Shown here piece by piece: positions 3,758-31,349 of a stretch of DNA of 64,000 nt. The notes under the pieces are model-generated. The model ran no database searches. It saw only the letters and a list, made by a program, of their open reading frames with translations, and had not been told where the DNA came from. Source of the DNA: Prorocentrum cordatum (Eukaryota). Position 1 is the stretch's first letter, and each line of letters begins with the position of its first letter. The stretch lies in assembly GCA_963575745.1 (NCBI GenBank), contig CAUYUJ010000147.1, forward strand, positions 1 through 64,000, given 5' to 3'. Position numbers and translations under genes: made by a program.

Positions 3758-3758
3758 G

Positions 3759-3778
3759 CAGAGAGAGAGAGAGAGAGC

Positions 3779-3843
<65 letters not shown>
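3759..3843. repeat. (GA)n microsatellite at the junction of two LINEs
   Basis: Read directly from the sequence. Confidence 0.95.
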
Positions 3844-3845
<2 letters not shown>

Positions 3846-6800: not shown

Positions 6801-7050
6801 TCTCATGGCTGCTCAAGGCTTCCTGGGTCTTCGCGCCGAGGATGGTCCCCAGCTCGCTTTTGAAGTCAAGCTTTGGGACGTAAAGGTCCAGGTCGCCCTT
6901 CAAATTGTCTACCTGCATTGCATTTCACGGTCGCGCATTGCGTCGTCCATACTCTGCTCCAACATAATGTATGCATGTGTTGCGTCATGTGCCTCATCCT
7001 TCGTTAAATGGATCATGTCTTAAACATCGGTGAGGTCCGTCTCGAAATCC
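3844..7050 (-). mobile_element. Second, heavily decayed LINE (ORF1-like region + APE endonuclease + N-terminal half of RT)
   Basis: Fragments across frames: ORF1-like LQVIAGGLKEDEEEENII (6658-6918); APE-like WAFIAVDETIR (~5700) and KEQIDYLLVSRR (~5170); RT FSTQELQAALTSMKNGSAADGKG, NFRPISIL, AVDFQEAFNS and GAKQGDPLS, ending at the (GA)n tract. Confidence 0.75.
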
Positions 7051-7070
7051 CCGAAACGTTCCGCAACTCT

Positions 7071-7139
7071 CATTTTTTTTAAAAATAAAATATAATATAT
7101 ATATATATATATTATAATATATATATAATATATATAATA

Positions 7140-7178
<39 letters not shown>

Positions 7179-7183
7179 ATAAA

Positions 7184-7229
<46 letters not shown>
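7071..7229. repeat. (TA)n / poly-A low-complexity tract
   Basis: Read directly from the sequence; could be partly an assembly artefact. Confidence 0.9.
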
Positions 7230-8331
7230 ATGGCGGCGCTGCGCTCAGATAGTATCCCGCCGGTGTGGCAGCGACCATCAAAGCATCATCATCATCCTAG
7301 TTCGGCTTCTGTTTTTGGGAGTGGGCCCGGAACACTGAACAGCTCGTTCCGACATCCGTGCCCAGCTCGGCGCCACGAGCGTGCACGAGAACGTGGTGGG
7401 TTTATACGAATGGGAGTCCAAATTGGTTACAGCAGCTTGACTAAAAACAAATAGCAAAAAAAACACCTCATTTTAACAGCAACAGGCGCCGCAAACCCTT
7501 TGTTGGAGGGGATAAACGGCGCAGCAAAAGAGAGCGAGGGGAACGTTGGCACTGAGTGTTCGTTTCATCTCACACGGCCCTCGTGTCTCCACCAGACTGT
7601 ATAGTTTCGGCGATGTCTGTACCATGCTCCGAAACGTCAGATTGACGGTGGAAGTCTGTCCGAACGTGTTCATTCAAAATGTTGAAGTGTTCCTCGCAAT
7701 ACATGTTGCGACTGATGGTCGAAATCATAAGGGCTTCCATGTTGTATCTCATCTGAAACATCGTGAATGCCTCATCGTCGTAAACCGTCCTGGCGCCCAT
7801 GGTAACAATGCGGTCGAACATGATTTCGCGATCGGTTTTGAAGTCGGTGATCCCACCTGAAACCTCCGTTGTCTTAACCGGCGTTGCACATTTCCGTTAA
7901 CCGATTCGTGCAAATTTTGTACCAGGCCTCTCGGACATCAGGGAAGGTTACATTGTAACCCAGGTCGTGGTTGCAAGGGTCCATTTGGGTCGTTCCAGCG
8001 GCCGCCGCTTCCATCTATGCACTGACCCCGTGAGTTAAAAACGAACCCCGCTACTATGAAAATCAGGTTGGAACGTTTTTGCTGAGCAGGCAACAGCGTT
8101 GGAGTCGAACAGTTGCGGCCCATAACTAACATGCACCACTTGAACTCCGAAACAGTGCTGCTCACCCAGACGCATGGCCATGTTCTAACACCTCCTCCAC
8201 CACTTCCTCCTCCTCATCCTTTTCTACCGTTAGGTCCTCCTCCATCCTTCGTGGGGTACGACGGCTTCCCAGCCTTTACTCCACTGCGTGTTCCCCCGCA
8301 TGCCTGACCTGGGCAACTCGTGTGAGCATCG

Positions 8332-8405
8332 TTTCTGGATGGGCTGGTGGGGTCACGCGAAGCGTCTCTGGTCGCTGGATGGGCCGATGGGAACACGCGA
8401 AGCGA
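8332..8405 (+). mobile_element. Two tandem remnants of the family-A Helentron-like 3' terminus (subTIR + ACGC-GAA-GCGT hairpin)
   Basis: TTTCTGGATGGGCTGGTGGGGTCACGCGAAGCGTCT matches 43334-43369; a degenerate second copy follows immediately. Confidence 0.65.
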
Positions 8406-11400
8406 TCAGGGCTGCTGCCCCCGCCACTCCCACCCCCACCCCCACACGCGACGAAGCCAAGCCGCCTCGAAGGCCGCAAATCCGCCATCTCCCGCCACCT
8501 CTCCACGCACTCGTCCGTCAGGCTCAGCTTGTCGGCGTAGTAAAGGGCCTCGAGCAGCCCAGCCGCGTCCCGTGCAGCCTCGGCCTCTCGGGGAGAGGCT
8601 CGGGGTGCACAGTGCGCCCCCTGTTGACAAAACGAAGTACGAACGAGAACGGCCCAAAACGCGACACGGCGGGTGAAGGCCCTGTCGAGAATCAGAAAAG
8701 AAAGGGTTTCTAGTCGACTTGGCAGGGTGAGGGATTGCTTGTAATGCATCAGCGCCGCGCGGCGCATGGATGCCGCCACCCTTCAGGGCGCGGGGGGGGA
8801 CTGGTCCAACGCGTCCCACAAGCATGAAGCAGCGACGGGGCCTGCAGGTCGTCTTAAACGCTTTCGACTCCAAGGACGAGGAGCAAGAGGACGAGGAACA
8901 GGAAAGGAGGAAGACGAAAAGGACGGCGCGCTTCGAACAATATCAGAGAGGGACAAATCCTGAGCCGCCCACTTCGCACACCCGCGCTGCGCGAGGCCAC
9001 GGGCGGGGTTGTTCCTCCGCGCCCTCGCGCGGCCTGCCCGCGCAGCGGAAAAAAAGAGGGCAGCCTTGCGACAGAAGCCGCAAAACGCGAGGCGCGGCCA
9101 TCTTCGCGCCCCTGCAGGGCGATCCAAGAAAGCGGGATCGTCGATTCGGGGGCCTTCCCAGAGCCACTCGCTCCACTCACGCGCCGATGCTGCGTCGAAC
9201 GTCAACCATGGGCCAGACTTGAGTCAAGCTAGGGTCGAACTACCGTCGAACTAAGTTCGAGCCAGAGTCGAACAGGTCTTCTAGGTGGGCCCCAAAAGTC
9301 CCCCCACAAAAAAAAGAAAACGAAAACACCCACTGCCGCCCGATCTGGGCCCCGATCTTCGTGGAGATCGACGCGAGGACTGGCCGCGAGGTCCACAAAG
9401 ACTGGCGCCCCGAATCTGGGTGGGCGGGGGGCCAAGTGGCGGTTCTAGTCTTTCGCCTGGACATTCATAATCCCTGCAACATGTCCCGATGATGTCTCAT
9501 TGTCAGTGGGCTCCGCAGATGGAATGGGCAAGAAAAGGTAACGCCGTCAAGCATGCACTAGGTAACACTGAAGGGAGGAGGCCGGCCCGCCAGCCGACGC
9601 ACGCGCGCGCCGCAGGCTCGCTCCTTTCCCGCTTCCTTAAAGCCAAGTACATAGCTCCGGAGACGCGGGTCAAGAAGGAAGAGCAGAAGCAGCAAACAGC
9701 GCAGGCGCAGGCAAGTCGAGTGAGACGGGCAGGAACCTGGTGGCGCGGAGGGGTGCATTGACTCCCCCCGCGGCGGGATCCGTAGAGCCGCCCCGACCCC
9801 CAGGCCCACCTGGCCCGTGCACATGTACAACCACCGGACCGAAACCCCACAAGAAAAATTATACCGCTCAACGGCGGGTGCCAGGGGGCGGCAGGCCGAA
9901 GAAGCCCAGCGTTTCCCGCGTGAGCGAATGCGCGCAGCTCAGGTCTCAATGCCCGCGCACACCTAGTGCACCCGCTCCACGAAGTAGTACGATCCAGCAA
10001 CGACTGTGTCGCGCCGGCGCAGCAGTTCATCTGCATCATCTCCAGCGGCCTCTCCGTTCACGAGAGTCATCCCAGCGCCACTGGCTCTGGCCCCTGGAGG
10101 AGCTGTCCTCTCTGCCTCTTGAGCTCCAGTCACTTGACTCACTCTTGCCCTGGCCCTTCTCCGACGAACTCGCCTTCGGCGCAGGCGGAGGTGGCGGCGC
10201 GCGGGCAGGTTACTTGGTGATCCACAAGAGCGTTGGAACTTGTCATTATATTCATCAAAGCTAAACCATTGCCGCGTTTTGCTTTGGCCGGTGACTTGCT
10301 GGTGTCGAGATGCATGCGCGTAGAATCCTCGGATTTCTGCAGTCTCGTTCTTGTCTTCGTAGTCTACGGTCGCATCGTAGACGCCGCCCCCGACCGGCCC
10401 GGGGCCGTCGCCATCGCGCGCGAGGCTGCCAACCGGCAGAGTGGCCCGTCTTCGGGGCATGAGTTCCTCAATCCTGCACTCGCCCGCCCGCGATCGAACT
10501 CGGGCGGGGCCAACCCAGCCAGTCTCGTGGCCTGACGCGGCTGCGCCGGCAGACGCAGGCGAATAGGGAGCGGCCCGATGGGACTGCTTTCCGCGCAAGA
10601 ACCGCGGCCGCGAAGGCGGGCGGGGGCGTCGCCGAGCCCGCTGCCCCGAGGCGGCGGTGCCGCTCGGGGCAATGCCTTCAGCAACTCGGGCTGCAGCGCC
10701 TGCCGGCGACTCAGCTGGGACTGTCTCGCTTAGAGAGTCAGCTGCACCGCTCTCCCCCTGTTCTTTTCCAGGAGATTTATGATCCCAATAGCGCCGTCGG
10801 CATTGAAGACCCCAAAGAGGCTGTTAGCACGACAAATCTCGGCACTAATATGAGGTTCCGTCGGCGTACACATGAAGACATTGGCCTCATGAATGCCTGG
10901 GCAATAGTGTCGCACGGTCATTGATACCTCGTTTCCGAATCCATCAAGCGAATTGCGAAGCAAAGAATGTTTCGATTGCAACTCGAGTCCGGCAATCCAA
11001 AGCGCGAGCATTCTGCAGGCGTGCATCCGATTGCGGATTACGCTGCGCCTCACACCCGGGAAACGCAATAGGAATTTCCGCGGACAAAAACGATAATATG
11101 ACCTCACGCACAGCTGGCATGATGCGCCCCCATCTTCCATGAGTAGGGATATGGTCGAACGGTTGGTCATAAACTCGCTATACGGATTTGTGCAATCCCA
11201 GCGGTACAGCATGAAGTACGCCCGTATCCAGTGGTTTCGTAGTTGGGCCAACCAATAAATATTCATGAATAAGTTGTGTTGCCACTTGGAGGACATCTGG
11301 TCTTTGGCACGTTGCGTTGTCGTAAGTGTAACCACACATGCTGCCAGACACGGAAAGCAAGTCGAGCCAGAAGGGCAGAGCTCCACTCGAAACAGTCATT

Positions 11401-12043
11401 GGATGTCGCTGTGCGATATGATTATTAAATACGCCATTCGACATCTCAGCCATCCGTTCAAGTTCTGAGATTACGTCATCACTGCGGCTTGGCCGGTGAT
11501 GAAGTCCGGCAACGCATCGGAAATCAATGTTTCCTATCTGATTCGACGCGGATGCTCGGTCCGCTGGGTTCAAATTATCCGTCAGCACCGGCCTAGATGG
11601 AATAACGAATCCGATGTCCTCCATCTGTCGTTCCCAGTGGGCCCTGCCCGCCTCTGGTTGGATTGGATCTGCACTAACCTGTTCCCAATCGAAAACGGCA
11701 AGTGCAAGGCATTTCATAAGGCGAGCATACTGGTCCAGATCGGGCGTCCAGATCAATGGCCACCAGTGGGCGGCCGCGGGGCGATCGCCCCCATGCTTGT
11801 GCTTCAGCCAATCAACGAATCTAAGCTTAAGAGGTTCAAGATACTGGAAGAAAGGCTCGCGACGCGCCGGCGGCAGTGCCGAGGCGCTGTCAGGACGCCA
11901 GGTTGCAGCAGCCCCCGGCATCGAAGCCATGAAAGTCCCGCCCGCCGATGCCACTTTGGTACGAACTTGCTCCTTATAAACCCATTGGCGCTGATGCTGT
12001 TCGACCTTGCTCAAGTTATCCAAAGCATGAGCGGAGCTCTTGC

Positions 12044-13541
12044 TCATTGTTTCATTCTATTAGCAACGATATTATATATTGCCCCCCCCCTTGGGGCATT
12101 GCCAAGACGTGGATTCAGGCCTAATGTCGCCCATGCAGCAACCAATGCATCTTCTGCAGGCGCTTGTAAGTAATTCGCTCTGACGTGTGTTTTGGCGGTG
12201 CCCTCAGCCTGATATACCCTGGGGGGTGGAGACCCACCGTCCCTCCGCTGGTTGAGCCAGCGAGGAACGCACTGAGCATGTTCCGCAAGAAACTCGCGCT
12301 TCGTTGGTATCAACCTGAGAATTCCGTATCCAAGTGCTTAAATATCTAAATCAAAAACATAAAGACCAATAAAAAAATATAAAAATTAATAAATAAGAAT
12401 CCCACAGACTAACATAATACTAAAAAAAATGAACAAAATAATTATTTAGAAAAAAAAAGGGAAATTAGACATTATTAATAACCAAATAACTAACAACATA
12501 TATTAATTACAAAAAGATGACCATTAACTAAATACAATTAGAATATAAATAACAAATCTATAATACTACAACAATCTAAAAATAGAAAAAATAAGCAAAT
12601 AACAAAACACGATAAACCAAAACCACAAAAAAAATTTAAAAACTGAAATCAATTGAGAAACAAATGAATATAAAAGAAAGAATTTATAATACAATCTAAA
12701 TCCAACATTGAATAAAAAATTATCCATATTCCGTATCCAAGTGCTTTCCACAATCCACTGAACTTGCTTGGGTACTTGATGACCCCTTTTCCCAATGTTG
12801 ATTCCTTATGGTTTCCAAGGGCGGAATGTGCAACTAGTGTCCACGGCGCCGTGCCATTCCAAAACTGCCAGGAGCATACACACGCTCTATGATGTGAGCA
12901 AAACACGAATGTCCCTGACACGAACGAAAGAACAATGGCATGGGCTTGGTAGCCCGTTCAGCTCTGCCGATAATGATGACGAGGTTGTCGCGTTCCTCAT
13001 CAGCGACGGCGTCGCGCGGGGCGTCTGGGTTCAGGAAAGAGTTCCACTGCTCGTGTATATGTGCCCCCTCAAGAATCAAAATCTCACCAGCTCGAACGCC
13101 TAGAACTTCCGCTTCTCCTGATGGCAACAGTGCGAGGGCGTGCATTGCAAGAGCCGTAGTGGCGCGTGTGATACCATCGTTCGTCATCTTCTGAATGAGG
13201 TCGCCCACGTGCACCCGCCCGCCCGATGACCGGGCGTGCCCTGCGCAATGTCTCGCCATGTACACCGCAAACTCGCCTACAGCTAACGCTTGAGGGTGTT
13301 CTCGGTGCCTGCATTTTCACCAGACATCCGAACTTCCTAGCATGACAGTCCCGCGACTATTTTTCGACAGCTTTGCATCTGCTTCCTCGGCTGCGCCCGT
13401 AGCGTCATTCGGCAGCACCAGGGGAATGAGTGCATTGTAGACCTCCTGGGGAATGGAGTCTGGCCTATCATCCGAGTCAAATTCTGTTTTGAGGAATTTG
13501 AGCGCTTGGTCGAACCTTTCTGCTTCTATCTCTCCGAGCAT
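12044..13541 (-). pseudogene. Putative tyrosine recombinase, disrupted by a stop, a frameshift and an AT-rich insert
   Basis: Candidate catalytic motifs occur in the expected order: LGVRAGEILILEGAHI (R), VIIIGRAERATK (K), YGILR (HxxR-like), RWLNQ (LGH/LNH-like), THVRANYLQ (Y). Removing the insert joins the last two ORFs in frame. Confidence 0.5.
12340..12727. other. 388-bp A-rich, G-poor insert flanked by a 19-bp direct repeat
   Basis: ATTCCGTATCCAAGTGCTT occurs at 12321-12339 and 12728-12746. Confidence 0.9.
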
Positions 13542-15394
13542 TGCAAGTATGGCATATTGTACCGTGCGCGCGTTATCTTAAATCGTACTATAGGCACGCC
13601 CACGGACGGCTGTAATGCGGAGGCACTGGACCAGCCACGTGGGCTTCAGTGACCAAGTTTCGCACATCATCGCTCGTGCTATCCCGAACGTTCTCGCGCT
13701 GCTGTGGGGCAGAATACAAAGGTCCTCAATCAACAGTCAATGTCGCGCGACTGACATTCCTAACTCTACCTGGAGGGCCCTGCCCCTCAGGACGGCGTTG
13801 TTTATGATCAGGCGTCGGCGGGAGACTCACGCGCATAAGCTAATTCGTGACTCCTGGACTCACGTCAGCATCCACGTCCTCGCCGAACAGCAAATGCGAC
13901 CTCACCCCTGCAGAGGGGATCCTATATCTATTATCCTGCGGACCAGCTGCTCGTACATCACCGCCCTCCTCCGCCCTTGCTGCAGGCGACACGTCGTTGT
14001 CTGTCGGGAGGGCCACCATCAACCACATTGGTCCGTGCTCCTCCTCCCTCGCCGACATTCGCCCCGACTGCGCCGGTCAACGACATAAGGTCGACGCTCA
14101 TTCTGACGCTGGAGACGCCCACCGTAGGAATGCTGAGTGGCGGGGGCGGAAGAAACTGCGCAAACAATGCCCCATTTTTATATGGCAACGAGTACTCAGA
14201 GGGTTCATTCCTCTTTTCTCTTGCCTGGTTCAGATACCGATGCGCCCATGTCAATATGTCCTCTTTCAGACAAGTCACCTCTCCAACAGCGAGCCCCAGA
14301 ACCTCGTCAAGACGTGAGCGACCGGGGCGAACTTGACGCAGCCGCATGAGTTCATTGCGAAGTGACAAATGCGCTCGGCTTGATCAGGGTCCGACATGTA
14401 TGGCTAGAAGAGTTCTCACCACTTTAACAACTTCTGACACAGGATAGTCGATCGGGAGGTCATATGGAGGCAACGACAAGTCCATATTATACAGATCATC
14501 TACTACATCACCCTCTCCAAGCTTTTCAGGAGAAGGTTCGGGAGATTCAAACTCAAGAGTACTAAGTGATTCTGAAGCATATATTCTGACAGATTTCAAA
14601 TCAGCTTCGGCCCTGACGGGTTGCTTAAGCCGTGCCTCTGACGGAGAACCCGGCTCCTCTTCATTGCGTTGGGGATCGAAGCGTGGTGGGCCCCTTGGAG
14701 GAGGCGTCGGAGGTGCCGGCAGATCCTTCGAGCTTCCAGCGCCCGGTGCGTCTGCTTTTGCCGGAGGTGGGTCATCCCTCAAAGAAGGCTTCCATGTGTT
14801 GAATATACCTGCTGGCGGCGCCTTCGCCTCTCTCTCTTTGGCCTCTGATCAGCGTCACGCGGCTTGGCCGCTGACTTCGGAGCAGGCGCAGGAGGGGGCG
14901 GAGGCGGCTTCAACACATTGCCTGACAACGGCCCCCAAAGATTTCTGCCCCCTGGCGGCGGCGCCGCAGGGGGACACGCCCCCTTCCTGAGAGTCGTCAT
15001 CCGACCCAAGAGCCGCCATTTCCCCGTGGCCTTAGGAATCGGGGGCACAGGAGGTCCAGCAGTTTTGGCACGCGGATGTTTAAGTTCCTGAGGGCCCTGA
15101 AAACGCGGAGGCGGCTTAGCCGCGCGAAGAGCAGACGCGCCCGCTGGCTGCGCCGGCGTGGCGGCTTGGCCTTGGCCTCTTTTTGTCCGTGAGCCGTCTC
15201 CTTTCCCATCTCCTCCGCTCCGTCTAGGAACGGGCGTTCGAAGTCAAGCTCGCAACCTGCGCTCTCCAAGTAGCCCCACACATTCTCCATCGAAGGGTCA
15301 TGCTCAAGATATGGTGAAGCATTTTCTTGCCAATCGATCGGTGAAAGATAGGGAACCATTGGCCTTGCTCTATTCTGACATTATTTGTCGAGTC

Positions 15395-15397
<3 letters not shown>

Positions 15398-15460
<63 letters not shown>

Positions 15461-15469
15461 ATATATATC

Positions 15470-15508
<39 letters not shown>
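15398..15508. repeat. (CT)n-(TA)n-(CT)n microsatellite interrupting the coding block
   Basis: Read directly from the sequence. Confidence 0.95.
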
Positions 15509-15512
<4 letters not shown>

Positions 15513-18500
15513 TCCTCAAACGCTCAACCTTGAAATCTTCATCAGCAGCTTCACCTTCTTCCAACAAATGTCACAAAACATTCCAAACGCCACCCCCGCA
15601 CGCATGGCACGCGGCGGGGCCCCAGTGGTAAATGCGTAACTCGGTCATCACAACCTGATCGGCATTCTTGGTACGCTGCTGCGTTGGACCGCCGTCACCA
15701 GTGAAGCGACGGCTTTTGGAAAACTCCAAAATATTATTTCCGCAGAGTTCCAATATCCATCGCGAAAAGTTATTCCGCCATTGCGCGCCGCGAGTGAGTC
15801 GAAGGATTACCTTCTGAATATGTCAAAGAACATATCCGGACATTCGTATTCTCCACGTTTCTCCCACATTCTCGGTCGGAAGGAGGAACTTGGCATTCAT
15901 CGAGAATCGAGTGGGGCGCCCCAACGGATGTTCCGTGGGACTGCCCAGTCCAATGTTGGCCCGAAATCATCTCTGCCAATTTTTCCTCTTGTACTTTGAG
16001 AGGAAATGTCAATTGGACACGCTGCTCCTTTTCTGCGTGTTCTACAATTGCTGCCTTTTCCCACACGATGCGGTCAACAATCGTCCTCGGTGCCCCGGGC
16101 GCTGCGCGGTCACGTCGCGCGATGAAGAACTTCGCCCAGTTTGGGATCACATATCCTGCACACAAAACCGGCCGTCTCGCACTCTCTCGGAGCATTTGCT
16201 GCGCCAACCACGCATCTCCGTTCGATGCGACGCGCAACCGATCATAAGCTGCACTATGCACGAGCGCTTCATTGTGCAATCATCAGAATCTCCCCCTGGC
16301 CGCATATTATTATTGCTGTAAAGACGTCGGGCTAACTCATTAGCATTCAAGGGCTTCAGGGAGATGAACTCTGCAAGTTGTCCACCCTCTCCTTCAGTCA
16401 GTCCAATCGTCGATGGATGTGGCAATGTGACAGGCGACCTGCGAACATTATCAGACCCGAGTGGAGGATATTTCCTCTTCTTGCCCAGACCTCTTCCCGT
16501 TGCGTTCTCCGGACACTTTCCTCTTATCGTGTTCTCGCAATGTCCAGCAGGGGAAAGAAAAAGCAGTTAATACTCTAACAGGTTCCACTGAGCGTGCCCG
16601 ACTCTCGATTGAACTCGCGGCTGCGCCAGGTCCAACAGAGCCCCCTGCATCGCTCGTAGTTGGCATTGATTGTCCGGCAGGACTGGTAATCGAAGCTGCA
16701 CCAGCGGGGCTGGCCTCCAATTGGCCGCCCTGCCTTGGCGCGGGCTGCGCCCCCGAGGTTCGCCAGGCAATCCGCTTCGCAGACTGCGCAGGTGAGCGAA
16801 AAAATGATCGAGATGCTTCCAGTGAGTCTATTGCTTCCTGCATGAACTGATCTATGAAATTTGTTCGCCACCACGACGCATGGCGCGCCAGTCCAGAGGC
16901 GTGCCGGGAATGCACGGCAAGCTCCTCTTAAGGAAGTGATGGTACTCGCTCCAACGCAAGTACTTTTCACTGCCATGTTCTTTCGAGATACAATATTTCC
17001 AATATTGTGAAAATAAAGAATGCCGCGCCCCCTGTCCTGTCCCATCAGCGTTGACAGGAACGGCATTGAGCACGTCAGCAGAAAGGGAGCGTTCCCAATA
17101 GTGAAATCGGAGCACCGTCCACGGTAGGACACCAGTTGGTCCAATACGAGACGTGCTCTTCATAAGTAGCTTCTGTCTTCGCGAATCCATCTGCTCGCAA
17201 TTCGCCATCGCAAGCCCACTCCTGGGCGGCTGAGCCGCCAGAGGGTTGACACAAAAACCAAGCGGCGAAACGTTTTGCTTGCATCATGTGATCGGCCATT
17301 ATCTTACCCCCTTGAACATTGACTGTTGCACCGTCTCTGTCCAACTTGCACGACTCGTGTTGGTCGACAAAATAGTGCGCGTCGTTCGAGGTGCGACGAA
17401 GTTTCCGACGCAAGCACGCACCGTCCAAAATCATTATTTTGAGCTGAATCCCTGCAGTCTTGCACCGCTCAATCCGCTGATTCATGCGCGCCCGCAACAA
17501 GGTAGCAATGTCGTCCAACATGGGATCCATTTTGACCGTGCAATTCCCCGACTGCCAACATCTATGATCTCCGCCAATCTAATATATATATGTATGGCTC
17601 CCGTCTTGGAACGTTTTACAGCCTCATCTATCATCCTCTCAGCTGTCTCGAAAAATCGGCCAAGTAATGCAATCGGCTTCTGAGGCTCGGCGCTCTTCTT
17701 TTTCGCCCCGGGCAGCCCCATGATGTCGCAAGTGTTTCCGTCAGAGATATCATTCGTGATCTAAGGTACATATTGTATTGGCATATGCTGCCTTGGGGCG
17801 AAATTTCCCAGGGTTGGAGACTTGATTATTCCACATATCTTCATTTCCCATGCATTGCAGAAGCGTCGGCCCGCACTCTCCACATCTGATGTCTGCGTCC
17901 GTTCCCAGAAGACTGCCCCGCCTAAAATATGGAAGGCTCGAACCAGGGCCAAGCCTCTCCTCTTGCGCATTACTGAACTTGCACGAAAGATCAAGGATCA
18001 TATGAATGGCAGCGCCCCAATACTTGTGTCCTCTGCATGAGCTTCGCTCCAAAGGTCAAAGAAAATCGCGCGGGGGTCTGCCGGTCCGCACCATGGCGGC
18101 CAGATCCTCACCACTGTAGGGAATCCACCCATGGCCGCGCGATTCTGCCATTAATGCAACGGCTTGGCACAAACGCTGATTCTTGAGCCACCCCAACGCA
18201 GAATAAAGGGAAATATCGACTACTTCAGCATACAATGCCGCTCTCTTTGACGCAACGAGCCCATTCGTCGGATACTTCGCTGCCCTGCAAGGGCGCGGCT
18301 GTGCTGGCGTCTTTTTGCTCTCTGCGTTGCAGCGCATTCCAAATTCCACGGGCCAAATAAGGCGGATCGGACTCACCACCCACTGCTTCCGAACGGGGAG
18401 GTTCAGGCGGACCCGGATCAGGAGGCCGACCTCCGCCTCCACCCCCATTTGGGGCACCTGGGTTCTGTCCAGCGTTTCCACCGCCAGATCCAGCACCAGA

Positions 18501-20024
18501 CCACGACCCCCAACCCCCGGCTGCGCCGGCGTTGGGATTACTAGAAGAACCACTTCCGCTCGGAGCGCCAACTGCAGCACCAGAGCTCGAGAAACTGCCT
18601 CCCCACGGTGCGTCAACGGGCGCATCTGGAATTGCGATGTCTGAGAAGATCGCATCTTCCTCAACGCGCATGGACGTCTCAGTTTTGGCCACTTTAATGG
18701 GCCGCTGATCTTCCCCGTCGCCCATCCGCCTCAGTGGGGAGTAGGCCTTTTGAGTCGCGACGTTGCCTTCCCTCGAAGGCGGCCCCCCTCGCTCAGGCGA
18801 CTGCGTCGCTCAGCGAAGTTTGGTTCTCTTGATTTGCGGTTATTCCTGCTCCTCGCCCCCGCCGCGGGGTCTGTTTGGAGCGTCCCCGATCAAGGCTTGC
18901 GCAACCACATTCACTTTAACTTCGGCCCCCCCTCCGATTAAGGGACGTGCAAAGTGGGCCCCTCGTCTGTCAACAGCAGGGCTGCGCGAGGGTCTTCACT
19001 TAGATGGTCCACAAATAATGAAGACAACTTGATCAGTGCGTCTGTCAATAGTTTTGATTGCGACAAAATATCCTGCCCCTGCCATGTAGATACGCTGAGC
19101 AGTCCGAAGAACTGGTCCGATGATTTCTCCACGATCGCAGTACCGGACAGGTTTGCTCGTCGGGCCCCCTGGAGGCCCTGTGAAGAATCTAGATCTCAAC
19201 ATGGCGTTTGGCTCAACGTGTGACTGAAAGTACTGCGATTCCTTGATTTGCGCCAAATCTGGAGGCGGACAATCAAAATTGCCTTCGAAACTCCCCTGCG
19301 AGTCCGGCTCGCGCGTTGCCCAGAAGACAATCTGTGGACCAACAGACGCTTTAATATATAATCACTGAATCACTGATTCATTGGCTGACTTCAAGTCCCC
19401 GCTGAGTGCCATTGCAACACTGTCCGCCCGAGAATATGCGCAGCCATTTCGGGTCATCACTTTTTGCTGCGCCCACCGTTCGCGAGGCATTTGTGGCACG
19501 TTTTCCCCACAAAGAAACTCGCTATCATCATCCTCGGGTTCCAAGTGATATTTGTGTTTTAGGTCAACGTTGGTCCATTTGTTGGCAATCTTCTTTTTTT
19601 CTGCAAGAACACTCACCAGCTTCTTCCCCCACTCCGATACGGCATCAAATCCGCTTCCCCTCATGGGGGCTATGCCCGCTTTGTTGGCAATCACTGTCCC
19701 AGAATATTCGTCTCCGTCGGTTTCGGTGTAGCTTCCAAGGTCCTCGGGTAGTTTCCCGACGTATACATAACTGGTACTTTGAACTTCCCTAGCGGCTGCG
19801 CCGTTCGGGGGGCCGAAAGCCTGAAGTTTCTCGGCTACTCTACTCGCAATTTTGCTCGGTCTATTTGCGAGGAAAACATATGTTAGACAATCGTTGTCAT
19901 GAATAGAAGCGCCATGATTGTCGCCCCTATCACAACTGTCCTGGCACACTTTGCAGCGATAGCCTGGGCAATCTACATTATCGTAATATTCCTTCGGCTG
20001 CGCCGTCTTTTGTTCCTCTGCCTT

Positions 20025-22469
20025 TTATCTCCCGCCAGACCGGCGCTCTCCGGTCCTGGCCGCCCTAGCGGACGCCCTCGCCGCCCCCGACGGCGCCCGC
20101 ACCTGCTGGGGGGGAGACGTCAACATGGAATGGCAGGGCCCGCGAGACGGTGAGATTGAGGACGTCGCCTCATGGGTCTCCGGGTCCGCGCGGGCAACGT
20201 GCCAGGCCTGGCCCAGGAGGCAGGCGACGAATCTGGAGCCCAGGTGGTATGCTTCGCAAGGTTCGCCGTCGATGCCAGGTGCGCCTGGGTTCAAAACGAG
20301 GGCGGCTAGGCGGCCACACCGTGGCGCAAGGAGGTCCGGTAGGTGAGTCGTGCGTCCACCCGCGAAGTAGGAGTCCAGGAGGCGTGTGTGGGCGGGCGGC
20401 AAGGGTTGCACCGACTGCCAAATGCCTGCTCGGCTGTTCCATAATACCTTCTCCATTCTGGAGGCGGCGTCGTTCCAGCGGTCACCGGGTCCTCGCGCTC
20501 CTCTTAAGGAGTGCGTCTTCTTGAATATCTCCCGACCAATCCGGTAGTTCGGCGAGCTGGGCCCTCTCCACGCCAGCGCCGCATTCCCGCGGAGTCAGCT
20601 GGGCTGTCCGTCGTTGGGTCTGGTCCGCGCGCCATCTGGTCTCCCAGGCGGCTGCCTCGCTGGGTGACAAGTCGTCGCCGCCCCATCCTGCGCTTGTCAA
20701 CCATGCTGCTGAGGGCCCGGTCGGTCTGAACGCCCCGGTGCCGGTTGCGGCCCTTCGCAGCTGCGCGCCCATCATGGGGGCCAGGCGCCGTCTGACCCAT
20801 ATTTTCACCAGGGCGCGATCGCAGCGCTGAGGGCGTCGCGCCCGTGCTCGGCGAGTGCGTCGATCCGGGGTGGTGCGCGGTCCTTGACTGGCGGGATGAG
20901 GTCGTCGTGGCCGTCTTCTTCATGGTTCAAGTCGTGTCTATCATTGGCAGGAAGATCGTCGGGGAGGCAGCCTGGGGGGGCGGGCCGGGTCCAGTCACTG
21001 GGCTGCACGAGGCCAGTCAGGTCCACTTGCGGCATCTGGAACATCATATCCAGGATGTTGCAGTGTCGTCGCAGGTCGTCATGCGCCTCCCCCGGGAGCC
21101 CTTTGTAGGCCCAGGGTGTGAGCACGTCACATCTCTTGACTGCAGGGTGCGAGGGCGGGTCGGCGCACATCAGAGCGTGGTCGGAAAATGTGCTGGACAG
21201 GCGAAGGTGTCGATCTGCGACTCGCCACTAGCACCTATGCGGGTGGGGCCGTCGTTGGGGGCAGGGTGGGAGGCGCGTCTGAGGGCGCCTCGAGCAAGTC
21301 CTCGGCCCATCCGTTGACCTCCTAGTGTGGATATTGAAGATCCCTGACGCCGAGCGCCCCAACGACTTGCGCCCCCTGCAGTTGCCTACCTGCATGCGTC
21401 TCCTATTCGGCGCATCCCTGGCGGACCTGCTTGGGCCACTGATCTAACCTCAGCTCTCAGGAGATCGGGCAGCCAAGAGAAATGGACCATGCGGGCCCAA
21501 CATCACTGCAGCTACTGACCACCTCGGCAAAGCGCCCGCCCTCAACCCCCCTCCTGTCGCCGCCTGGCATCACTTCTTGGGAGACTACGGTCCTCTGGTA
21601 GACACCTACATCAGGGAAGCAGCGGCGGGGGCCTCGACGTCCACTGCCACGGCGACGTCATTCGCAGACCACAGCAAAGCGTTCGAGAGACTGCCCCATA
21701 CATTGGTAGAGGAGTTACTACGGCGCCGGAGGCTCCCAACCTGGCTCAGGCACGCCCTCATGGCCCTCACCATAGACACGTGCAGACGTGCAAAGGCACC
21801 TACGCCGGACCAAGGAAGCGACTACTGCGGTCCATCAGCATGGGAGGCACCGCCTCCCCCCTCATATGGCGCATGGCATACGACCCCGTCATTGAGGCAA
21901 CTTCTGCTGCCACCGGGGACAGATGCCCCGCCTACGTGGACGACCTTGCTGAACTCCTTACCACCGCCGAGCAGGCCCTGCGCGCCTCCATCCTGCTTCC
22001 GTGGGCCTCGCACATGGCTGGGCTTTGCGTCGACGCCCACGCGTGCCAGGGGCTCGTGCCGCCTGCGTCGCCGGACAATCTACGGCGTGCCTGTGCGCCC
22101 CTGCCTGTGCAGGTTAAACGCCGCTCCAGCGGGAGATCATTTTTTTATTCCGGCCGGTAACGCTCGTTACCCGGGGGGGGGGGGTCGTGCCCCCCGGGTA
22201 ACGGTAACGCTTGGGCTGGGCGGGGTATGGCGAAGCAGGGGCGCTCTGCGATCGCCATAGTATGCGCGCGAGCAGCACTCTCTGCCTGAGAGCACCACAG
22301 TGGCTTGCGATTCGAGTACAAGCGCAAAGCCCGCCGCGTGGTCCCGGCACCACGCCCGCGCCCGCGCGCGCGACGACGATGATCGACGAGCGACGAGCGA
22401 CGAGGTCGACGACGACGACGACGACGTTTGCCGCCTGTTTCGGCCTCCGGAGGCCGTTTTCGGGCGCCG

Positions 22470-22527
<58 letters not shown>

Positions 22528-27241: not shown

Positions 27242-30037
27242 GCATGTGCGTGCGTGCGCGTATGTGTGCGTTTGCCTAATGGCATGCATGCGCGCGCGTG
27301 TCGTTGGCCACCGGAGCGCCGCCTCCACATAGCATCTCGTACATCGCCACTTTAAAGCCACCGCGCGCGGCATCGCTCCAACAAAATATCAAACGGGCGC
27401 GGGCCGAGCCCCAGCGACTGCTCGTAGGGGTGGATCGCGGGCTTCTCGCCGCGCGAATCCGCCCTCGACAAGGTCGTAAAAGACCAAGTCCTCCTCCTCC
27501 CTCCTCCCCCTCCTCGTCGTCTTCCTCCCCCTCCTCCCCCTCTTCCCTCCTCCTCCCTCCCTCCTCCTCCCTCCTCTTCCTCCTCCTCCTCCCTCCTCGT
27601 CCTCCTCCTCCTCTTCCCTCCTCCTCGTCTCCTCCTCCTCTCCCCCCCCCCTCCTCTTCCCTTCTTCCTCCTCCCTCCTCTTCCTCCCCCTCCCTCCTCG
27701 CCCCCCTTACTCCTCCCCCTCCCCCCCCCCCTCCCCCCCCTCCTCCTCCCCCTCCTCCTCCTCCAGGCTTAAGGGGCGAACGGCCAGTGGCGCGCGCGGG
27801 GCGTGCATTCCCGACGTCCTGCCGACCTTCTGCTCCCCTTATCATCCTCATCCTTCCTGTCTTCCTTCGCCCAACCCCGAACAGTTGAGCCCTCTTGGGG
27901 GGGGCGCCCCATGCCTCGACCGCACGCCCCCCTTGGACAAAAAACAGCAAGGTGAAACAGAAGCGCAGCATGGGGCCCTCTGCGCTGTTAGTGTTGGTAT
28001 GTTGCTGTTGGTGTTGTTATTGTTGCTGTTGCTGTTGTTGTACGTGGTGTTGTCGATGGTGTTGTTGATGTTAGTGTTGGTGATGGTGGTGGTGTTGTTG
28101 TTGTCGTTGTTGCTGCTGGTGTTGTTGTGATGCGTGTGTTCTTGTGCATGTTGTTGCTGGTCTGGTTGCTTTTGCTTGTGGCGGGAATGCCCACGGCCAA
28201 AAACAGGGTCCTCGGGGACCCAGAGGACCTTCTCCAGGAAGGCTATATAAAAAGTGCCACCTCCGTGGAGGCTTTTGGCCACAGTGGCCATGCGACGGTT
28301 CATCTCCTCGTCTGCATACGCCCAGTCATGCATAGGGTTCCCGTGGACTTCGGCGCGGCGCACCAGGCCCCACGCACTGTGGAACTTAAAGACGCGATGG
28401 CCGCCAAACCGGCGCCATTCCGAAAGAAAACGTTTCATGCTGCGCTGCAGCGCTGAAATGCTTGCTGCCGGCAGTGCGCGGCGGCGCTGCTCGCGCCGCA
28501 TAATGGCGCGCACCTCGTTCAAATGCTTGCGCGCCCTGTGCAAGGCGGCGCCCTGACCACCTAGAAAGTGAGGGTACTCGGAGCACAAAGTCTCCATGAG
28601 CGGGAGCAAGTGGCGAGTCTGTTGCCACTTCAGCTTTTTGATGACCGCAAGCTGCTTGCGGTTACGCATGCGGCGCAGCCTATAAAACGATTTCATGCGT
28701 CTGCGACTTGCGAACAAATTATCGAATCTGCGCTTCTCGAGCGTGGACGTCCTGGGCCTGCTCGCATCGCTCCGACAGCGATGCGGTAGATGGGGTGGGG
28801 GAGATGGGGGAGGAGATCGATGGGGGGGGGACGCGGCCGCCATATGGCAACGCTAGCAGGCCCAGTACTTTCGTGGATCCAGCGAAACGACTGCGCCCCC
28901 GACGAACTGGGAAACACCCAATACCAGAATGTGCATCGCATCGAGATGCACGCAATCGACGGTGAAACCAGGAAATTCAAAAAGAGGTGCGATCACGTTG
29001 ATATGTGAGCTGATGTTTGCGTCGAAGAGATCCAACCAAGCAGGGGGCTCAATGTCAACGAATGCGTGTATATCACGCACACATTCATTCTCTATGAGGC
29101 GGTGTCCCTTTTTCAGCATGAGCTGAGGGAAGTCTTCAATGAGGCACATGCCTCGCCTGGCGCCGTCGGGCTTCATCTTGCGAGCGAGGCGCCACAACAA
29201 TGGTCTTGAACCGACCATGCGGCGGGTCATTACCTTATTGACCTCCTCACGGTATGTGGCAGAAGCGCGCTGCTGCCATCGGCATGGCGCCATTGAACGA
29301 TCGAAATTAAAAAGGTCGGCTTTGATGGACATGCAACAAGAACACGGGTGCTCAATGTTTTGCCAAGTTTAAAAACCAAGGTTTGTGACAATCTCGAGGA
29401 GATCGGCACTGTATTCACACAGTGCCCCACATGCACCACCTGCGAGCTGAAAGCCTCGATGCGCTGACCGCATCTCGTCCAACGGCTCACCGTTGTGATC
29501 GAACGAGGGCCACGCGCCCTTCGAGAGGGTCGTAAAAGACCGCGTTAAAATGCGGTGAACGCAACCGATCGTGCACCATCCTTGGCAACCGCACGCGCAA
29601 AGGTCTCATTTCTTGATCACGCAAATCAGAAAACGCTTACCTGGCATCAGGTGGCAGGGGTAATAATAACAGATGAACGAGTCTGTTTTTGAAAAAGGGA
29701 CTCCATCTGAGCACAGCGCGAGAGGGCACGAAAGGAGACCGCGCCCCAAGGTTACGGGGCGAGATTCAAAATTCAAAGGAAGGACGCCGCGATTATCTCC
29801 ATTGATGTCGAAAACCGACGGGTCTCGCCCATGCAACAGAGAAGAATGTTCGCGCGGTAACATGAACGGAAAATCAATCATCCCCCGACTTTGCAGATCG
29901 GCATTCCAGAAAGGCACTTTCGCGAAGTACAGAAGATTGCGCACTGACGCCGCCCCGCCGGCATGTCGAAGGCGCTCTGCGCAGTGGGTTCCGCCAGGGG
30001 GCTTTGCCAAGTCACTCGCTCCAGTGGCGCCTGGGAC

Positions 30038-30263
30038 GTGCTCCAAAATGGCTCTGCGGAAGCACGTCGCCCCCATCTCTTCTCGAACGGGGGCGGGGTT
30101 AGCTAAGGGGCCCCTGGGGGGGGGGGGTGCGGCGGAGGAGACGAGGCCGAAAGGTGTAGGGGGGCACATGAGGAGGCGGAGGAGGAGGAGGTGAGGCCCA
30201 TGAGGGGGAGGGCGGGGAACTTGGAAACAGCGCGCTTCCGCTGACCATTTTGGACCACCCAGC
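30038..30263. mobile_element. Small TIR-bearing insertion in the transposase (frame-preserving)
   Basis: TCCAAAATGG..GCGGAAGC (30042-30063) is inverted relative to GCTTCCGC..CCATTTTGGA (30234-30254). A degenerate direct repeat GCGCC(T/A)GG(G/A)AC lies at 30027 and 30264, 237 bp apart. Confidence 0.65.
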
Positions 30264-30369
30264 GCGCCAGGAACAGCGGCATGAAACCTCAGCACACAGA
30301 CGTGCGCGGCTGTCATCAGCCCGTTCTTGTGCTTCTGCAGCAAATGCGAGCGCAAGCCAGCGCCGCCGT

Positions 30370-30580
30370 CCTCCAGCGCGCCAGGGCCGCGCGCAGGTCC
30401 AGGCCCGTCTCCAGCGCGGGGCGCCTCCAGCTGGCCTCCAGGGCCGCGCGCAGGCCCAGGCACGTCTCCAGCGCGGGGCGCCTCCAGGTGGCCTCCGGGG
30501 CCGCGCGCAGGTCCAGACCTGCCTCCAGCGCCGGGCGCCTCGAGCCGTCCTCCAGGGCCGCGCGCAGGTCCAGGCCTGCC
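30370..30580 (-). repeat. 57-bp (19-aa, GPARGPGGxLEAPxAG) minisatellite in the transposase N-terminus
   Basis: About 3.5 tandem units are visible in both the DNA and ORF 29606..30742. Confidence 0.85.
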
Positions 30581-31349
30581 CCCAAACGCAATGAGCGCCG
30601 CCGCGGCAGCTCTCGACATCCTCCGAAAGAACGCGTGAACGTCCACAAAAGCTCGATGTGAACTTCTACGGATGGCGTTTGCTCCAGCCGTGGCTTTCGG
30701 ATTTATCTCGGCCCCTGGGTAACCAACGCAACACCAGACCAAACCACCGCATCATTCAACATTGCCCCTGGGGTCCGAAGCTAGCCCCTAGGAAACGCGT
30801 CACGATGCGCCGCCCCGTGGAGGACCTCGAACAGGAGCCACGTTCGTTCGTTTGCTGACTGTTTGTCGCTATGCGCGCGATGTCCTGACCCTTTTCCTCG
30901 TTGCCCTTCTCCTTCGCATTCCCATCCTCCTCATCCTCCTCATCGCCCTCTTCCTTCTCATCCTCATCCTAATCCTTCTCCCCCTCATCCTCTTCCTCCT
31001 CATCCTCATCCCAATCACTCTCCTTCTCCTACTCATCCTTGGCATCATTATCCCCATCCTCATCCTCCTTCCTCATCCTCATCATCCTCATCATCATCCT
31101 CATCGGCCTCCCTCTCCTCCTCGTCCGCATCCTCCGCATCCTCATCCGCATCCTCGTCATCATCCTTCCCCCCCTCATCCTCAGCATCCTTATCATCGTC
31201 CTCATCCTCCTCCCTCTCCTCCTCCTTCTGCGTATCCTCATCTTCCTTCCTCTCCTCATTCCCAGTATCCTCATCAGTGTCCTCTCTCATCATCATCCTC
31301 ATCATCCCTCTGCTACTCATCCTCCACATCACTCTCCTCATCCGCATCC

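What the first reader, a model, noticed from the sequence alone, without database searches (positions are those of the whole stretch)
9963..20025. 10-kb intronless minus-strand gene block with a putative tyrosine recombinase and no RT
Seen: a compositionally distinct, repeat-poor run of broken ORFs. It includes a Cys cluster (CPGYRCKVCQDSC), a Gly-rich linker, a segment loosely like an SGNH-type fold (..MNQRI..ILDG..NDAHYF) and a region with R/K/xxLR/WLNQ/Y motifs in tyrosine-recombinase order. No RT, RNase H or DDE motif was recognised. Inference: a large recombinase-mobilised element (Crypton- or Starship-like, or an endogenised virus) of a kind I cannot name. Its right end is cut by a LINE.
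Basis: partly seen in the sequence, partly recalled or inferred. Interest (0 to 1): 0.7.

Follow-up and report, generated by a model that had tools for sequence, protein, structure and literature searches.

The report
Decayed multi-copy block with Tpt1-like gene
This roughly 9-kb stretch is a dead copy of a repeated, probably mobile, DNA unit of a marine alga; its supposed recombinase gene is instead a distant relative of the RNA-repair enzyme Tpt1/KptA, so how the unit moves is still unknown.

Summary
The minus-strand run of broken reading frames is real and lower in G+C than its flanks. At least two of its frames are true protein genes.

- **Frames 18996-20024:** 4 homologous protein fragments at 54-70% identity. 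Their arginine sits where the window has a stop.
- **The "tyrosine recombinase" (12194-13890):** it belongs to a family of 56 representative proteins. The window copy carries three stops, two frameshifts and a 407-bp insertion.
- **Not a recombinase:** the proposed catalytic residues are not conserved (R 12 of 31, K 4 of 25, Y 1 of 8, no HxxR).
- **Tpt1/KptA-like instead:** profile-profile comparison links the family to RNA 2'-phosphotransferase Tpt1/KptA (probability 88-90%, E about 2e-6). Thirty shuffled controls scored at most 22.5 against 48.3. Pfam, PDB sequence searches and a genome search do not see this link.
- **Multi-copy:** contigs of one public DNA run cover the whole block with many diverged copies.
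- **No mobility enzyme found:** no RT, RNase H, integrase, DDE, tyrosine-recombinase, SGNH or viral hallmark domain was detected. No terminal repeats were found either.

Verdict: a decayed copy of an unclassified, lineage-restricted repeated element. The recombinase reading is refuted. The Tpt1-like multi-copy family is a modest novelty.

The parts
18996..20024 (-). Gene family 1 (frames A+B, 343 codons): Cys cluster at the N-terminus, one in-frame stop at 19362-19364. Function unknown.
   Evidence: 4 proteins at E 2e-50 to 3.5e-19, all 4 labelled as a EukProt Pyramimonas sp. set; 54-70% identity; the stop aligns with R in all 4. No Pfam hit. No PDB hit.
18225..18809 (-).
   Evidence: Only a chance-level Pfam hit (Herpes_capsid, E 0.18).
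17750..18730 (-). Frames E+F (one stop between them). Unknown.
   Evidence: G+C by codon position 0.64/0.51/0.64 in E. No Pfam hit at E<=10.
17075..17578 (-). Unknown.
   Evidence: No Pfam hit. No GDS[LIVM] motif anywhere in the block.
15770..16279 (-). Frame M (169 aa). Unknown.
   Evidence: X1 word depth is 66.9 in bin 15616-16216.
15361..15551 (.). Dinucleotide-type microsatellite inside the block.
   Evidence: family D4.
14997..15380 (-). Frame N (127 aa). Unknown, possibly constrained.
   Evidence: Both listed X1 differences (15249, 15297) fall on its third codon positions (table 3).
13958..14848 (-). Frames O+P (one stop between them), Pro-rich N-terminus. Unknown.
   Evidence: No Pfam hit at E<=10.
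12194..13890 (-). Lesions: frameshift near 13616, TAA 13578-13580, TGA 13317-13319, TAG 12834-12836, frameshift near 12810, and an insertion at 12321-12727.
   Evidence: 56 representatives at E<=1e-3; family footprint 12194-13890; lesions against homologs; match to a Tpt1 profile; winged helix.
12321..12727 (.). A 407-bp AT-rich insertion flanked by a 19-bp duplication. It splits the Tpt1-like gene.
   Evidence: sequence. table 5 and record 2: a 395-nt X1 contig joins 12320 to 12728 with 0 other letters, and 19 letters fit both sides.
11178..12047 (-). Frame T: an intact 289-codon ORF. Its ATG (12047-12045) overlaps the TGA (12046-12044) of the Tpt1-like gene. Unknown function.
   Evidence: All 3 listed X1 differences (11637, 11667, 11730) are third codon positions. 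No homolog, no Pfam hit, no PDB hit. AF2 pLDDT 36.7.
20030..22260 (+). LINE-like fragment abutting the right end: endonuclease-like GGDVN and RT-like FADHSKAFERLPH motifs. Decayed.
   Evidence: by eye; the motifs are recalled. Pfam is silent. No target-site duplication found.
27848..30751 (-). Large frames on the same strand, 8 kb upstream, with D..D..E-like motifs. A candidate transposase; its link to the block is not shown.
   Evidence: sequences. The resemblance to CACTA/CMC transposases is recalled only. Pfam is silent, as is PDB. No inverted-repeat pair with 8.5-11.3 kb.

Best explanation
Window 11178-20024 (minus strand) is a decayed copy of a multi-copy, lineage-restricted selfish DNA unit that fits no named class.

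What it carries:
- Several same-strand genes. Two are shown to be real protein families and two more (T, N) are hinted to be constrained.
- The gene read as a tyrosine recombinase encodes a 400-600-aa protein. Its core is a winged-helix domain with the R-H, G-W and R-x-x-Q-G-H-S motifs of RNA 2'-phosphotransferase Tpt1/KptA. A His-x-Thr motif follows where Tpt1 starts its NAD-binding domain.

Inferred, not shown:
- The unit multiplied as DNA, most likely as the internal or cargo part of a cut-and-paste transposon. Its transposase would lie elsewhere, possibly the DDE-like frames at 27848-30751.
- The Tpt1-like protein binds, and perhaps NAD-dependently modifies, nucleic-acid ends.

This copy is dead. 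The Tpt1-like gene has three stops, two frameshifts and one insertion, and family 1 has one stop. A LINE-like sequence abuts its right end.
For: Real genes:
- A full HMMER search with 12837-13577 gave 56 representatives at E<=1e-3, 28 at <=1e-10 and 6 at <=1e-30. They cover both sides of the TGA.
- Family 1 gave 4 hits at E 2e-50 to 3.5e-19, with R at the window's stop.

Multi-copy:
- 2835 X1 contigs were laid on 6000-24000: 141 at >=99% identity, 305 at 95-99%, 1004 at 90-95% and 1385 under 90%.
- Summed word depth is 8.6-85 across 11178-20024, against 3-5 for single perfect contigs.

Constraint:
- 8 of 9 listed X1 differences in frames T, R and N are third codon positions (table 3).

Tpt1 link:
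- hhalign of the 57-sequence family against 11 Tpt1/KptA sequences gave probability 90%, E 1.7e-6 over 49 columns.
- Greedy mode gave 88%, E 3e-6 over 174 columns. It aligns ARH with LRH, GGW with GW, FFRACQGHS with IRAxQGHS and LVHVTS with LYHGTA.
- With the window's own protein first: 89.9%, E 1.7e-6.
- Thirty column-shuffled Tpt1 profiles scored 10.7-22.5 and the reversed profile 15.2, against 48.3 for the real one.
- Motif conservation: H 23 of 24, R 16 of 24, W 18 of 23, R of FFR 20 of 27, G 22 of 27, H 18 of 27, S 19 of 27.
- The AF2 core 122-243 is a winged helix. Tpt1 chains 7kw9_A (Z 4.1, rmsd 2.9, 72 aligned, 21% identity) and 7yw2_A (Z 4.0, rmsd 2.9, 70 aligned) are among the matches.

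No RT, RNase H, integrase or YR domain.
Against: On the element:
- No ends, terminal repeats or target-site duplication of the block were found.
- No full-length second copy could be fetched. No genome is held, and the metagenome and viral scans were empty.
- So 'one element' and 'mobile' are inferred from copy number and decay alone.
- Contig word depth is not a copy number.
- Only 1 of 5 listed X1 differences in the other frames is a third codon position.
- The DDE-like frames are named from memory, and Pfam does not support them.

On the Tpt1 link:
- It is seen only profile against profile.
- Pfam PF01885 matched 0 of 32 members at E<=1.
- The family profile found nothing in PDB at E<=10 and did not find kptA in E. 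coli K-12.
- The smaller alignment A3 gave only 6% and 27% probability.
- Foldseek gave nothing at E<=0.001.
- In VIA-align the Tpt1 chains are tied with many other winged helices; the top match is ScpA at Z 5.2.
- The column that the low-confidence greedy alignment places under Tpt1's catalytic Arg of K-x-R-F holds E or D in 28 of 29 sequences.
- The C-terminal half is not modelled (pLDDT under 50 at 238-265 and 344-398).
Confidence: 0.5

Rival explanations
1. A tyrosine-recombinase-mobilised element (Crypton- or Starship-like). The protein at 12044-13541 would cut and rejoin DNA.
For: By eye the window copy shows R, K, W and Y in recombinase-like order. Two Cre chains appear far down the Foldseek list (E 6.9 and 7.3, probability 0.07-0.11).
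Against: The candidate catalytic residues are not conserved in the family: R 12 of 31 and K 4 of 25, Y 1 of 8 and no HxxR. Pfam gave no Phage_integrase or DUF3435 hit on 32 members or on the window frames. The confident part of the model is a winged helix. The family matches Tpt1/KptA instead.
Confidence: 0.03
2. A host multigene family, or segmentally duplicated gene cluster, of lineage-specific genes. It would not be mobile, and this copy would be a pseudogene cluster.
For: There are no ends, terminal repeats or mobility enzyme. The Tpt1-like family also occurs in metagenome assemblies at 22-50% identity, one as an uninterrupted 591-aa frame on a 1971-bp contig. That looks like an ordinary gene. 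Third-position bias in T, R and N fits any constrained gene.
Against: Diverged X1 contigs cover the whole block, between the frames too, with a broad spread of identity from under 90% to 99%. The Tpt1-like family has 56 representative clusters at 50% identity, mostly short broken pieces. The block sits among LINE-like fragments and itself received an insertion.
Confidence: 0.17
3. An endogenised fragment of a large DNA virus: compact same-strand orphan genes, one an RNA-repair-type enzyme.
For: The genes are same-strand and closely packed, with an ATGA stop/start overlap between the Tpt1-like gene and T. G+C differs from the flanks. Nearly all proteins are orphans.
Against: 4 of 4 scans of viral contigs found no relative. 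No viral structural match at E<=0.001. No capsid, packaging ATPase, polymerase or other hallmark in Pfam, and no Walker A motif in a coding frame. The many diverged copies fit a transposon better than a one-off integration.
Confidence: 0.12
4. The accessory-gene part of one of the giant retrotransposons (LINE or DIRS/Ngaro type) that earlier notes report in this genome. Its RT would be lost from, or lie outside, this copy.
For: Earlier notes describe 16-26-kb retroelements with unusual cargo in the same genome (unchecked AI notes). A 1066-aa minus-strand frame at 831-4028 has weak RVT_1 (E 0.073) and zf-RVT (E 0.091) hits.
Against: No RT or RNase H in any frame of the block. The stretch 6000-7802 between the block and that frame has X1 word depth of only 0.7-4.0, so it is not part of the same repeat. 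The LINE-like fragment on the right is on the opposite strand. Sequence look-ups in the scan's notes found no look-alike in other windows: 6 of 6 empty (for sequences of this window, and P0011).
Confidence: 0.1

Closest known systems
RNA 2'-phosphotransferase Tpt1/KptA (Pfam PF01885, PTS_2-RNA)
   Same: An N-terminal winged helix carrying R-H, G-W and R-x-x-Q-G-H-S in the same order, then H-x-T where Tpt1 has H-G-T. Tpt1 chains are among the structural matches, with the highest sequence identity of the listed rows.
   Different: Two to three times longer (about 400-600 aa against about 180). There is an insertion of roughly 35-45 residues between the second strand and the QGHS strand, and long extra N- and C-terminal parts. 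No conserved Arg was found for two of Tpt1's four catalytic residues; the tetrad is recalled, and the columns come from a low-confidence alignment. It lies below every Pfam and PDB sequence threshold. It is multi-copy and often broken.
CACTA / CMC-type and other large cut-and-paste DNA transposons with accessory genes
   Same: Large size, several same-strand genes, no reverse transcriptase, many diverged and decayed copies. DDE-like frames lie 8 kb upstream on the same strand (the resemblance is recalled).
   Different: No terminal inverted repeats, no CACTA ends and no target-site duplication. Pfam has no transposase hit. The link between the two parts is not shown.
Crypton and Starship elements (tyrosine-recombinase DNA transposons)
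   Same: Only the size class, and that the element has no RT.
   Different: No tyrosine recombinase: the catalytic residues are not conserved and there is no Pfam hit.
Giant LINE and Ngaro-type retrotransposons noted earlier in this genome (e1-7628204, e1-7627974; unchecked AI notes)
   Same: The same genome, a similar length and unusual accessory genes.
   Different: No RT, RNase H, endonuclease or recombinase domain in the block. No shared sequence words with noted windows.

Membership tests
Tyrosine recombinase (Crypton, DIRS, Starship captain) | Invariant catalytic R..K..H-x-x-R..[H/W]..Y (the pattern is recalled) | tested here: not met
   In the family alignment the proposed R is R in 12 of 31 and the K is K in 4 of 25. 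Y is Y in 1 of 8 and no HxxR column exists. Only the W is kept, 10 of 10.
Tyrosine recombinase (Crypton, DIRS, Starship captain) | Match to Pfam Phage_integrase / DUF3435, or an integrase catalytic fold | tested here: not met
   0 of 32 family members and none of the window frames hit these families. The modelled core is a winged helix. The C-terminal half is not modelled, so the fold test there is open.
Tpt1/KptA RNA 2'-phosphotransferase (PF01885) | N-terminal winged helix with the L-R-H and G-W motifs | tested here: met
   hhalign probability 90%, E 1.7e-6 over Tpt1 positions 7-58. Controls scored at most 22.5 against 48.3. R 16 of 24, H 23 of 24, W 18 of 23. Winged helix in the model.
Tpt1/KptA RNA 2'-phosphotransferase (PF01885) | R-A-x-Q-G-H-S strand | tested here: met
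   FFRACQGHS aligns with IRAxQGHS. R 20, Q 17, G 22, H 18 and S 19 of 27.
Tpt1/KptA RNA 2'-phosphotransferase (PF01885) | Full catalytic tetrad R-H-R-R, including the Arg of K-x-R-F and the Arg before V-H-L-S (the tetrad is recalled) | tested here: inconclusive
   R-H are present. The column under K-x-R-F holds E or D in 28 of 29, and no conserved Arg is seen before the LLRL stretch. These columns come from a low-confidence greedy alignment.
Tpt1/KptA RNA 2'-phosphotransferase (PF01885) | C-terminal ADP-ribosyltransferase-type NAD-binding domain beginning H-G-T | tested here: inconclusive
   H-x-T is partly kept (H 13 of 17, T 7 of 18). The AF2 model is below pLDDT 50 at 238-265 and 344-398.
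Tpt1/KptA RNA 2'-phosphotransferase (PF01885) | Score over Pfam's gathering cut-off | tested here: not met
   0 of 32 members at E<=1. P0011 and P0058 give nothing at E<=10. The family HMM finds no kptA in E. coli K-12.
SGNH hydrolase | GDS(L) block and a Pfam Lipase_GDSL match | tested here: not met
   No Pfam hit for 17075-17578 or for any frame. No GDS[LIVM] in three frames of 10700-20100.
Retrotransposon (LINE, LTR, DIRS/Ngaro) | Reverse transcriptase with Y/F-x-D-D, and RNase H | tested here: not met
   No RVT or RNase_H family at E<=0.1 in three-frame read-through. No [YF]xDD in any frame.
CACTA/CMC or other DDE transposon | DDE transposase gene and terminal inverted repeats with a target-site duplication | tested here: inconclusive
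   No DDE family inside the block. The DDE-like frames at 27848-30751 are named from recalled motifs only, and Pfam is silent. No inverted-repeat pair was found.
Endogenous large DNA virus | Hallmark genes (capsid, packaging ATPase, polymerase) or relatives on viral contigs | tested here: not met
   No Pfam hit. 4 of 4 viral-contig scans were empty. BFVD gave nothing at E<=0.001.

The most novel reading that the evidence does not exclude
The block is the conserved core of a new class of large algal mobile element. Its hallmark protein would be a Tpt1/KptA-derived, NAD-dependent enzyme that modifies nucleic-acid ends. It would use this either for its own replication or integration (for example priming or capping DNA or RNA ends by ADP-ribosylation) or to escape host silencing. 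One of the orphan proteins (family 1 with the Cys cluster, or T) would be a transposase of an undescribed fold.
Probability: 0.1. Interest if true: 0.75.

Novelty: new variant of a known kind. Interest (0 to 1): 0.36.

Why it matters
The finding corrects an attractive but wrong reading: there is no new recombinase-driven giant element here.

What remains is still of some use.
- It is a lineage-restricted, multi-copy unit made almost wholly of orphan genes.
- One of those genes is a strongly diverged, expanded relative of the tRNA-splicing and RNA-repair enzyme Tpt1/KptA.
- I found no paper that links this enzyme family to mobile or repeated DNA. Searches: one unrelated paper, passage read; four papers, listing only; none.
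- If the family is active, it would be a new setting for NAD-dependent modification of nucleic-acid ends.
- If it is a binding domain only, it is an example of a housekeeping fold taken over by selfish DNA.
- For genome annotation, it flags a repeat family that standard domain libraries do not recognise.

Tried and rejected
- **Whole genome:** not held.
- **Frame T (11181-12056):**
  - No homolog among 1142 candidates of 160-511 aa.
  - The Atlas gave no usable hit.
  - PDB sequence search gave nothing better than E 0.25.
  - No likeness to P0058.
  - AF2 without an alignment gave pLDDT 36.7, which is unusable and was not searched.
- **Frame R alone:** the 'longer' homolog search was empty. 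PDB gave only CooT at E 0.06.
- **Atlas with P0011:** no usable hit.
- **Metagenome contigs:** two scans (A3, A5) found no relative.
- **Viral contigs:** four scans were empty.
- **In-window paralogs:** none.
- **Rfam and tRNA scans of the window:** nothing.
- **RNA evidence:** no RNA holder listed, so expression and splicing could not be examined.
- **Ends of the block:**
  - No direct or inverted repeat of 40 nt or more around the block in 1-32000.
  - No duplication of the letters at 19980-20070 downstream beyond chance 9-10-mers.
  - No inverted pair longer than 17 nt (with mismatches) between 8500-11300 and 30600-38000.
  - No CACTA-type pair.
- **Motif greps:** no Walker A in a coding frame, no YxDD, DEAD, GDD, DTDS or HUH. 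One HHCC-like spacing in frame F has a 39-residue gap, and I take it as chance.
- **Earlier notes of this scan:** none for this place. None by sequence.
- **Column counts:** They were redone on a C-terminal alignment.
- **Rejected idea:** that T is the C-terminal extension of the Tpt1-like protein. Family members end about 60-70 residues after the WLxQRR motif, as the window's frame does.

Full report
**1. The observation**

Between about 11.2 and 20.0 kb the minus strand carries a chain of stop-bounded frames.
- Several neighbours share a frame and are separated by a single stop: 19362-20024 with 18996-19361, 18056-18730 with 17750-18055, 14384-14848 with 13958-14383, and 13317-13577 with 12834-13316.
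- G+C is 0.385-0.599 per kb here. It is 0.616-0.627 on the left and 0.632-0.674 on the right.
- Frames of 100 aa or more sum to 2960 aa on the minus strand. The maximum in 300 Markov simulations was 2228. The plus strand (2537) is also above the simulations, and the longest frame (292) is only slightly above the simulated 95th percentile of 253. Frame length alone therefore proves little.
- Several frames show the G+C pattern usual for coding sequence, with the first codon position above the second.
- Pfam found no family for 21 separate frames at E<=1, and none for three-frame read-through of 9963-20024 at E<=0.1.

**2. Two frames are real genes of multi-copy families**

The "recombinase" region:
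- A full HMMER search of 1.84 billion representatives with 12837-13577 (TGA read through) returned 56 proteins at E<=1e-3. Of these, 28 were at <=1e-10 and 6 at <=1e-30.
- Most are 60-200-aa fragments. Several span the window's TGA.
- I looked up 20 of them. Twelve bear the label of one EukProt Pyramimonas sp. set. One, 100% identical to the window, is from EukProt without a name. Six are from ENA assemblies and one is from JGI/IMG.
- The longest are 398 aa (P0011) and 591 aa (P0058, on a 1971-bp contig).
- tblastn of all family members maps them to 12194-13890 only.

Against the homologs, the window copy has these lesions:

| Lesion | Position |
|---|---|
| Frameshift | near 13616 |
| TAA | 13578-13580 |
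| TGA (R in relatives) | 13317-13319 |
| TAG | 12834-12836 |
| Frameshift | near 12810 |
| 407-bp AT-rich insertion | 12321-12727 |

The second family:
- 18996-20024 has 4 hits at E 2e-50 to 3.5e-19 and 54-70% identity. All 4 are from the same EukProt set.
- They have arginine where the window has its stop.

**3. The whole block is repeated DNA**
- No genome is held and the window has no second copy.
- One public DNA run (X1) holds 26% of the block's words.
- Laid at 80% likeness or more on 6000-24000, 2835 of its contigs match: 141 at 99% or more, 305 at 95-99%, 1004 at 90-95% and 1385 below 90%.
- Summed word depth across 11178-20024 is 8.6-85 per bin, while perfect single contigs have depth 3-5. 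The tool warns that this is no copy number, but it does show many diverged copies across genes and spacers alike.
- Bin 9606-10206 has depth 182, and 6000-7802 has only 0.7-4.0. So 9963-11177 probably belongs to another repeat, and the unit does not reach the RT-like frame at 831-4028.
- Of the best-supported differences that the tool listed, 8 of 9 in frames T (3 of 3), R (3 of 4) and N (2 of 2) fall on third codon positions. In the other frames the figure is 1 of 5 (table 3). This small sample hints that T, R and N diverged under protein constraint.

**4. The "tyrosine recombinase" is not one**
The Lys of ATKPMP is K in 4 of 25.
- In a separate C-terminal alignment the Tyr is Y only in the window (1 of 8), and no HxxR exists. 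Only the Trp of P-x-W-L is kept, 10 of 10.
- Pfam found no integrase family in 32 members.
- An AF2 model of P0011 built with the 57-row alignment has mean pLDDT 60.8, with a good core at 130-235.
- Foldseek found nothing at E<=0.001 in PDB or BFVD.
- VIA-align over 48,161 chains shows that residues 122-243 form a winged helix. The best match is ScpA (Z 5.2, rmsd 2.7, 69 aligned).

**5. What it resembles: Tpt1/KptA**

The conserved blocks reminded me of RNA 2'-phosphotransferase. They are L-A-R-H-C, S-G-G-W-V, F-F-R-A-C-Q-G-H-S and H-G-x-L-L-H-V-T-S. This was a recalled lead, so I tested it.
- I fetched E. coli kptA and ten annotated plasmid genes from bacteria and archaea, and aligned them.
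- hhalign of the 57-row family against this profile gave probability 90%, E 1.7e-6 over 49 columns (family 129-178 to Tpt1 7-58).
- In greedy mode it gave 88%, E 3e-6 over 174 columns. This placed R-H on R-H, G-W on G-W, RACQGHS on RAxQGHS and HVT on HGT. With the window's own protein as first row it gave 89.9%.
- Thirty column-shuffled Tpt1 profiles scored 10.7-22.5 and the reversed one 15.2, against 48.3 for the real profile.
- Two Tpt1 structures (7kw9_A, 7yw2_A) are among the winged-helix matches. They show 21% and 14% identity, but are tied in Z with many others.

Results against the link:
- The 10-row alignment gave only 6% and 27% probability.
- Against the single KptA sequence it aligned only the QGHS strand.
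- Pfam PF01885 matched 0 of 32 members.
- The family profile found nothing in PDB and no kptA in E. coli.
- Two of the four catalytic residues that I recall for Tpt1 have no conserved counterpart.
- The C-terminal half is not modelled.

I put the chance of true, distant homology of the N-terminal domain at about 70%. The protein is Tpt1-like and is not a member of PF01885 as defined.

**6. The rest of the block**
- Frame T (12047-11178) is an intact 289-codon ORF. Its ATG overlaps the stop of the Tpt1-like gene.
- T has no homolog, family or usable model.
- Frames D, E+F, H, M, N and O+P have no family either.
- A motif grep found no Walker A in a coding frame, no YxDD and no GDS(L).
- Viral contigs (4 scans) and metagenome contigs (2 scans) gave no relatives.

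**7. The surroundings**
- Right of about 20030 the plus strand shows LINE-like endonuclease and RT motifs by eye. Pfam does not confirm them, and I found no target-site duplication.
- Further right, on the same strand as the block, 27848-30751 holds large frames. Their D..D..E-like motifs remind me of CACTA/CMC transposases.
- This is recall only. Pfam and PDB are silent, and no inverted-repeat pair links that region to the left end of the block.

**8. Reading**

Shown:
- a decayed copy of a multi-copy unit with at least two real, lineage-restricted protein families
- no RT, recombinase or viral hallmark
- the "recombinase" is a Tpt1-like winged-helix protein

Inferred:
- the unit is or was mobile as DNA, most likely as the internal part of a cut-and-paste transposon whose enzyme lies elsewhere
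- the Tpt1-like protein binds or modifies nucleic-acid ends

Rivals are a host gene cluster, a viral fragment and a giant retroelement part. They are scored in their own section.

The nearest named homologs carry a prasinophyte (Pyramimonas sp.) label, whereas earlier notes of this scan guessed a dinoflagellate. I did not pursue the window's own source.

**9. Literature**

I saw only search listings, plus one passage.
- No paper in the library joins Tpt1, KptA and 'transposable' in a relevant way. There was 1 hit, PMC4053983; the passage I read is a table of regulated Pfam families.
- 'PF01885' occurs in 4 papers, none about repeats by their titles and abstract starts.
- Tpt1 + ADP-ribosyltransferase + 'mobile element' gave 0 papers.
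- Supplements were not consulted.

Noticed in passing
window 12321-12727: A 407-bp, very AT-rich insertion, A-rich on the plus strand, with a 19-bp flanking duplication. Run X1 holds a contig with the empty site and no mismatch in 395 nt, so the insertion is recent or polymorphic. Its source and mechanism are unknown.
   Followed up: partly
window 831-4028, minus strand: An intact 1066-aa frame with weak RVT_1 (E 0.073) and zf-RVT (E 0.091) hits in the right order. Probably a LINE-type reverse transcriptase too diverged for Pfam's cut-offs.
   Followed up: no
window 27848-30751, minus strand: Large frames (334+171 aa with one stop between, and 381 aa) with D..D..E-like motifs that I recall from CACTA/CMC transposases. 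Pfam and PDB are silent. A possible autonomous partner of the block.
   Followed up: partly
window 20030-22260, plus strand: A LINE-like fragment recognised only by eye (GGDVN, FADHSKAFERLPH). No Pfam support.
   Followed up: partly
window 7803-8403 and 22227-22827: Very high summed word depth in run X1 (5236 and 1330), with many loose ends at 8312-8366. Short, very abundant repeats.
   Followed up: no
window 37400-43400: Long inverted repeats, for example arms 37414-37839 and 42515-42940 (426 nt, 91% complementary), amid tandem arrays.
   Followed up: no
window 12044-12047: An ATGA overlap: the stop of the Tpt1-like gene and the start of frame T share three bases. That is unusual for nuclear eukaryotic genes and may be chance.
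   Followed up: no
whole window / homologs: All 16 named homologs carry a EukProt Pyramimonas sp. label: 12 of the 20 looked up, and 4 of 4. Earlier notes of this scan guess that the genome is a dinoflagellate.
   Followed up: no
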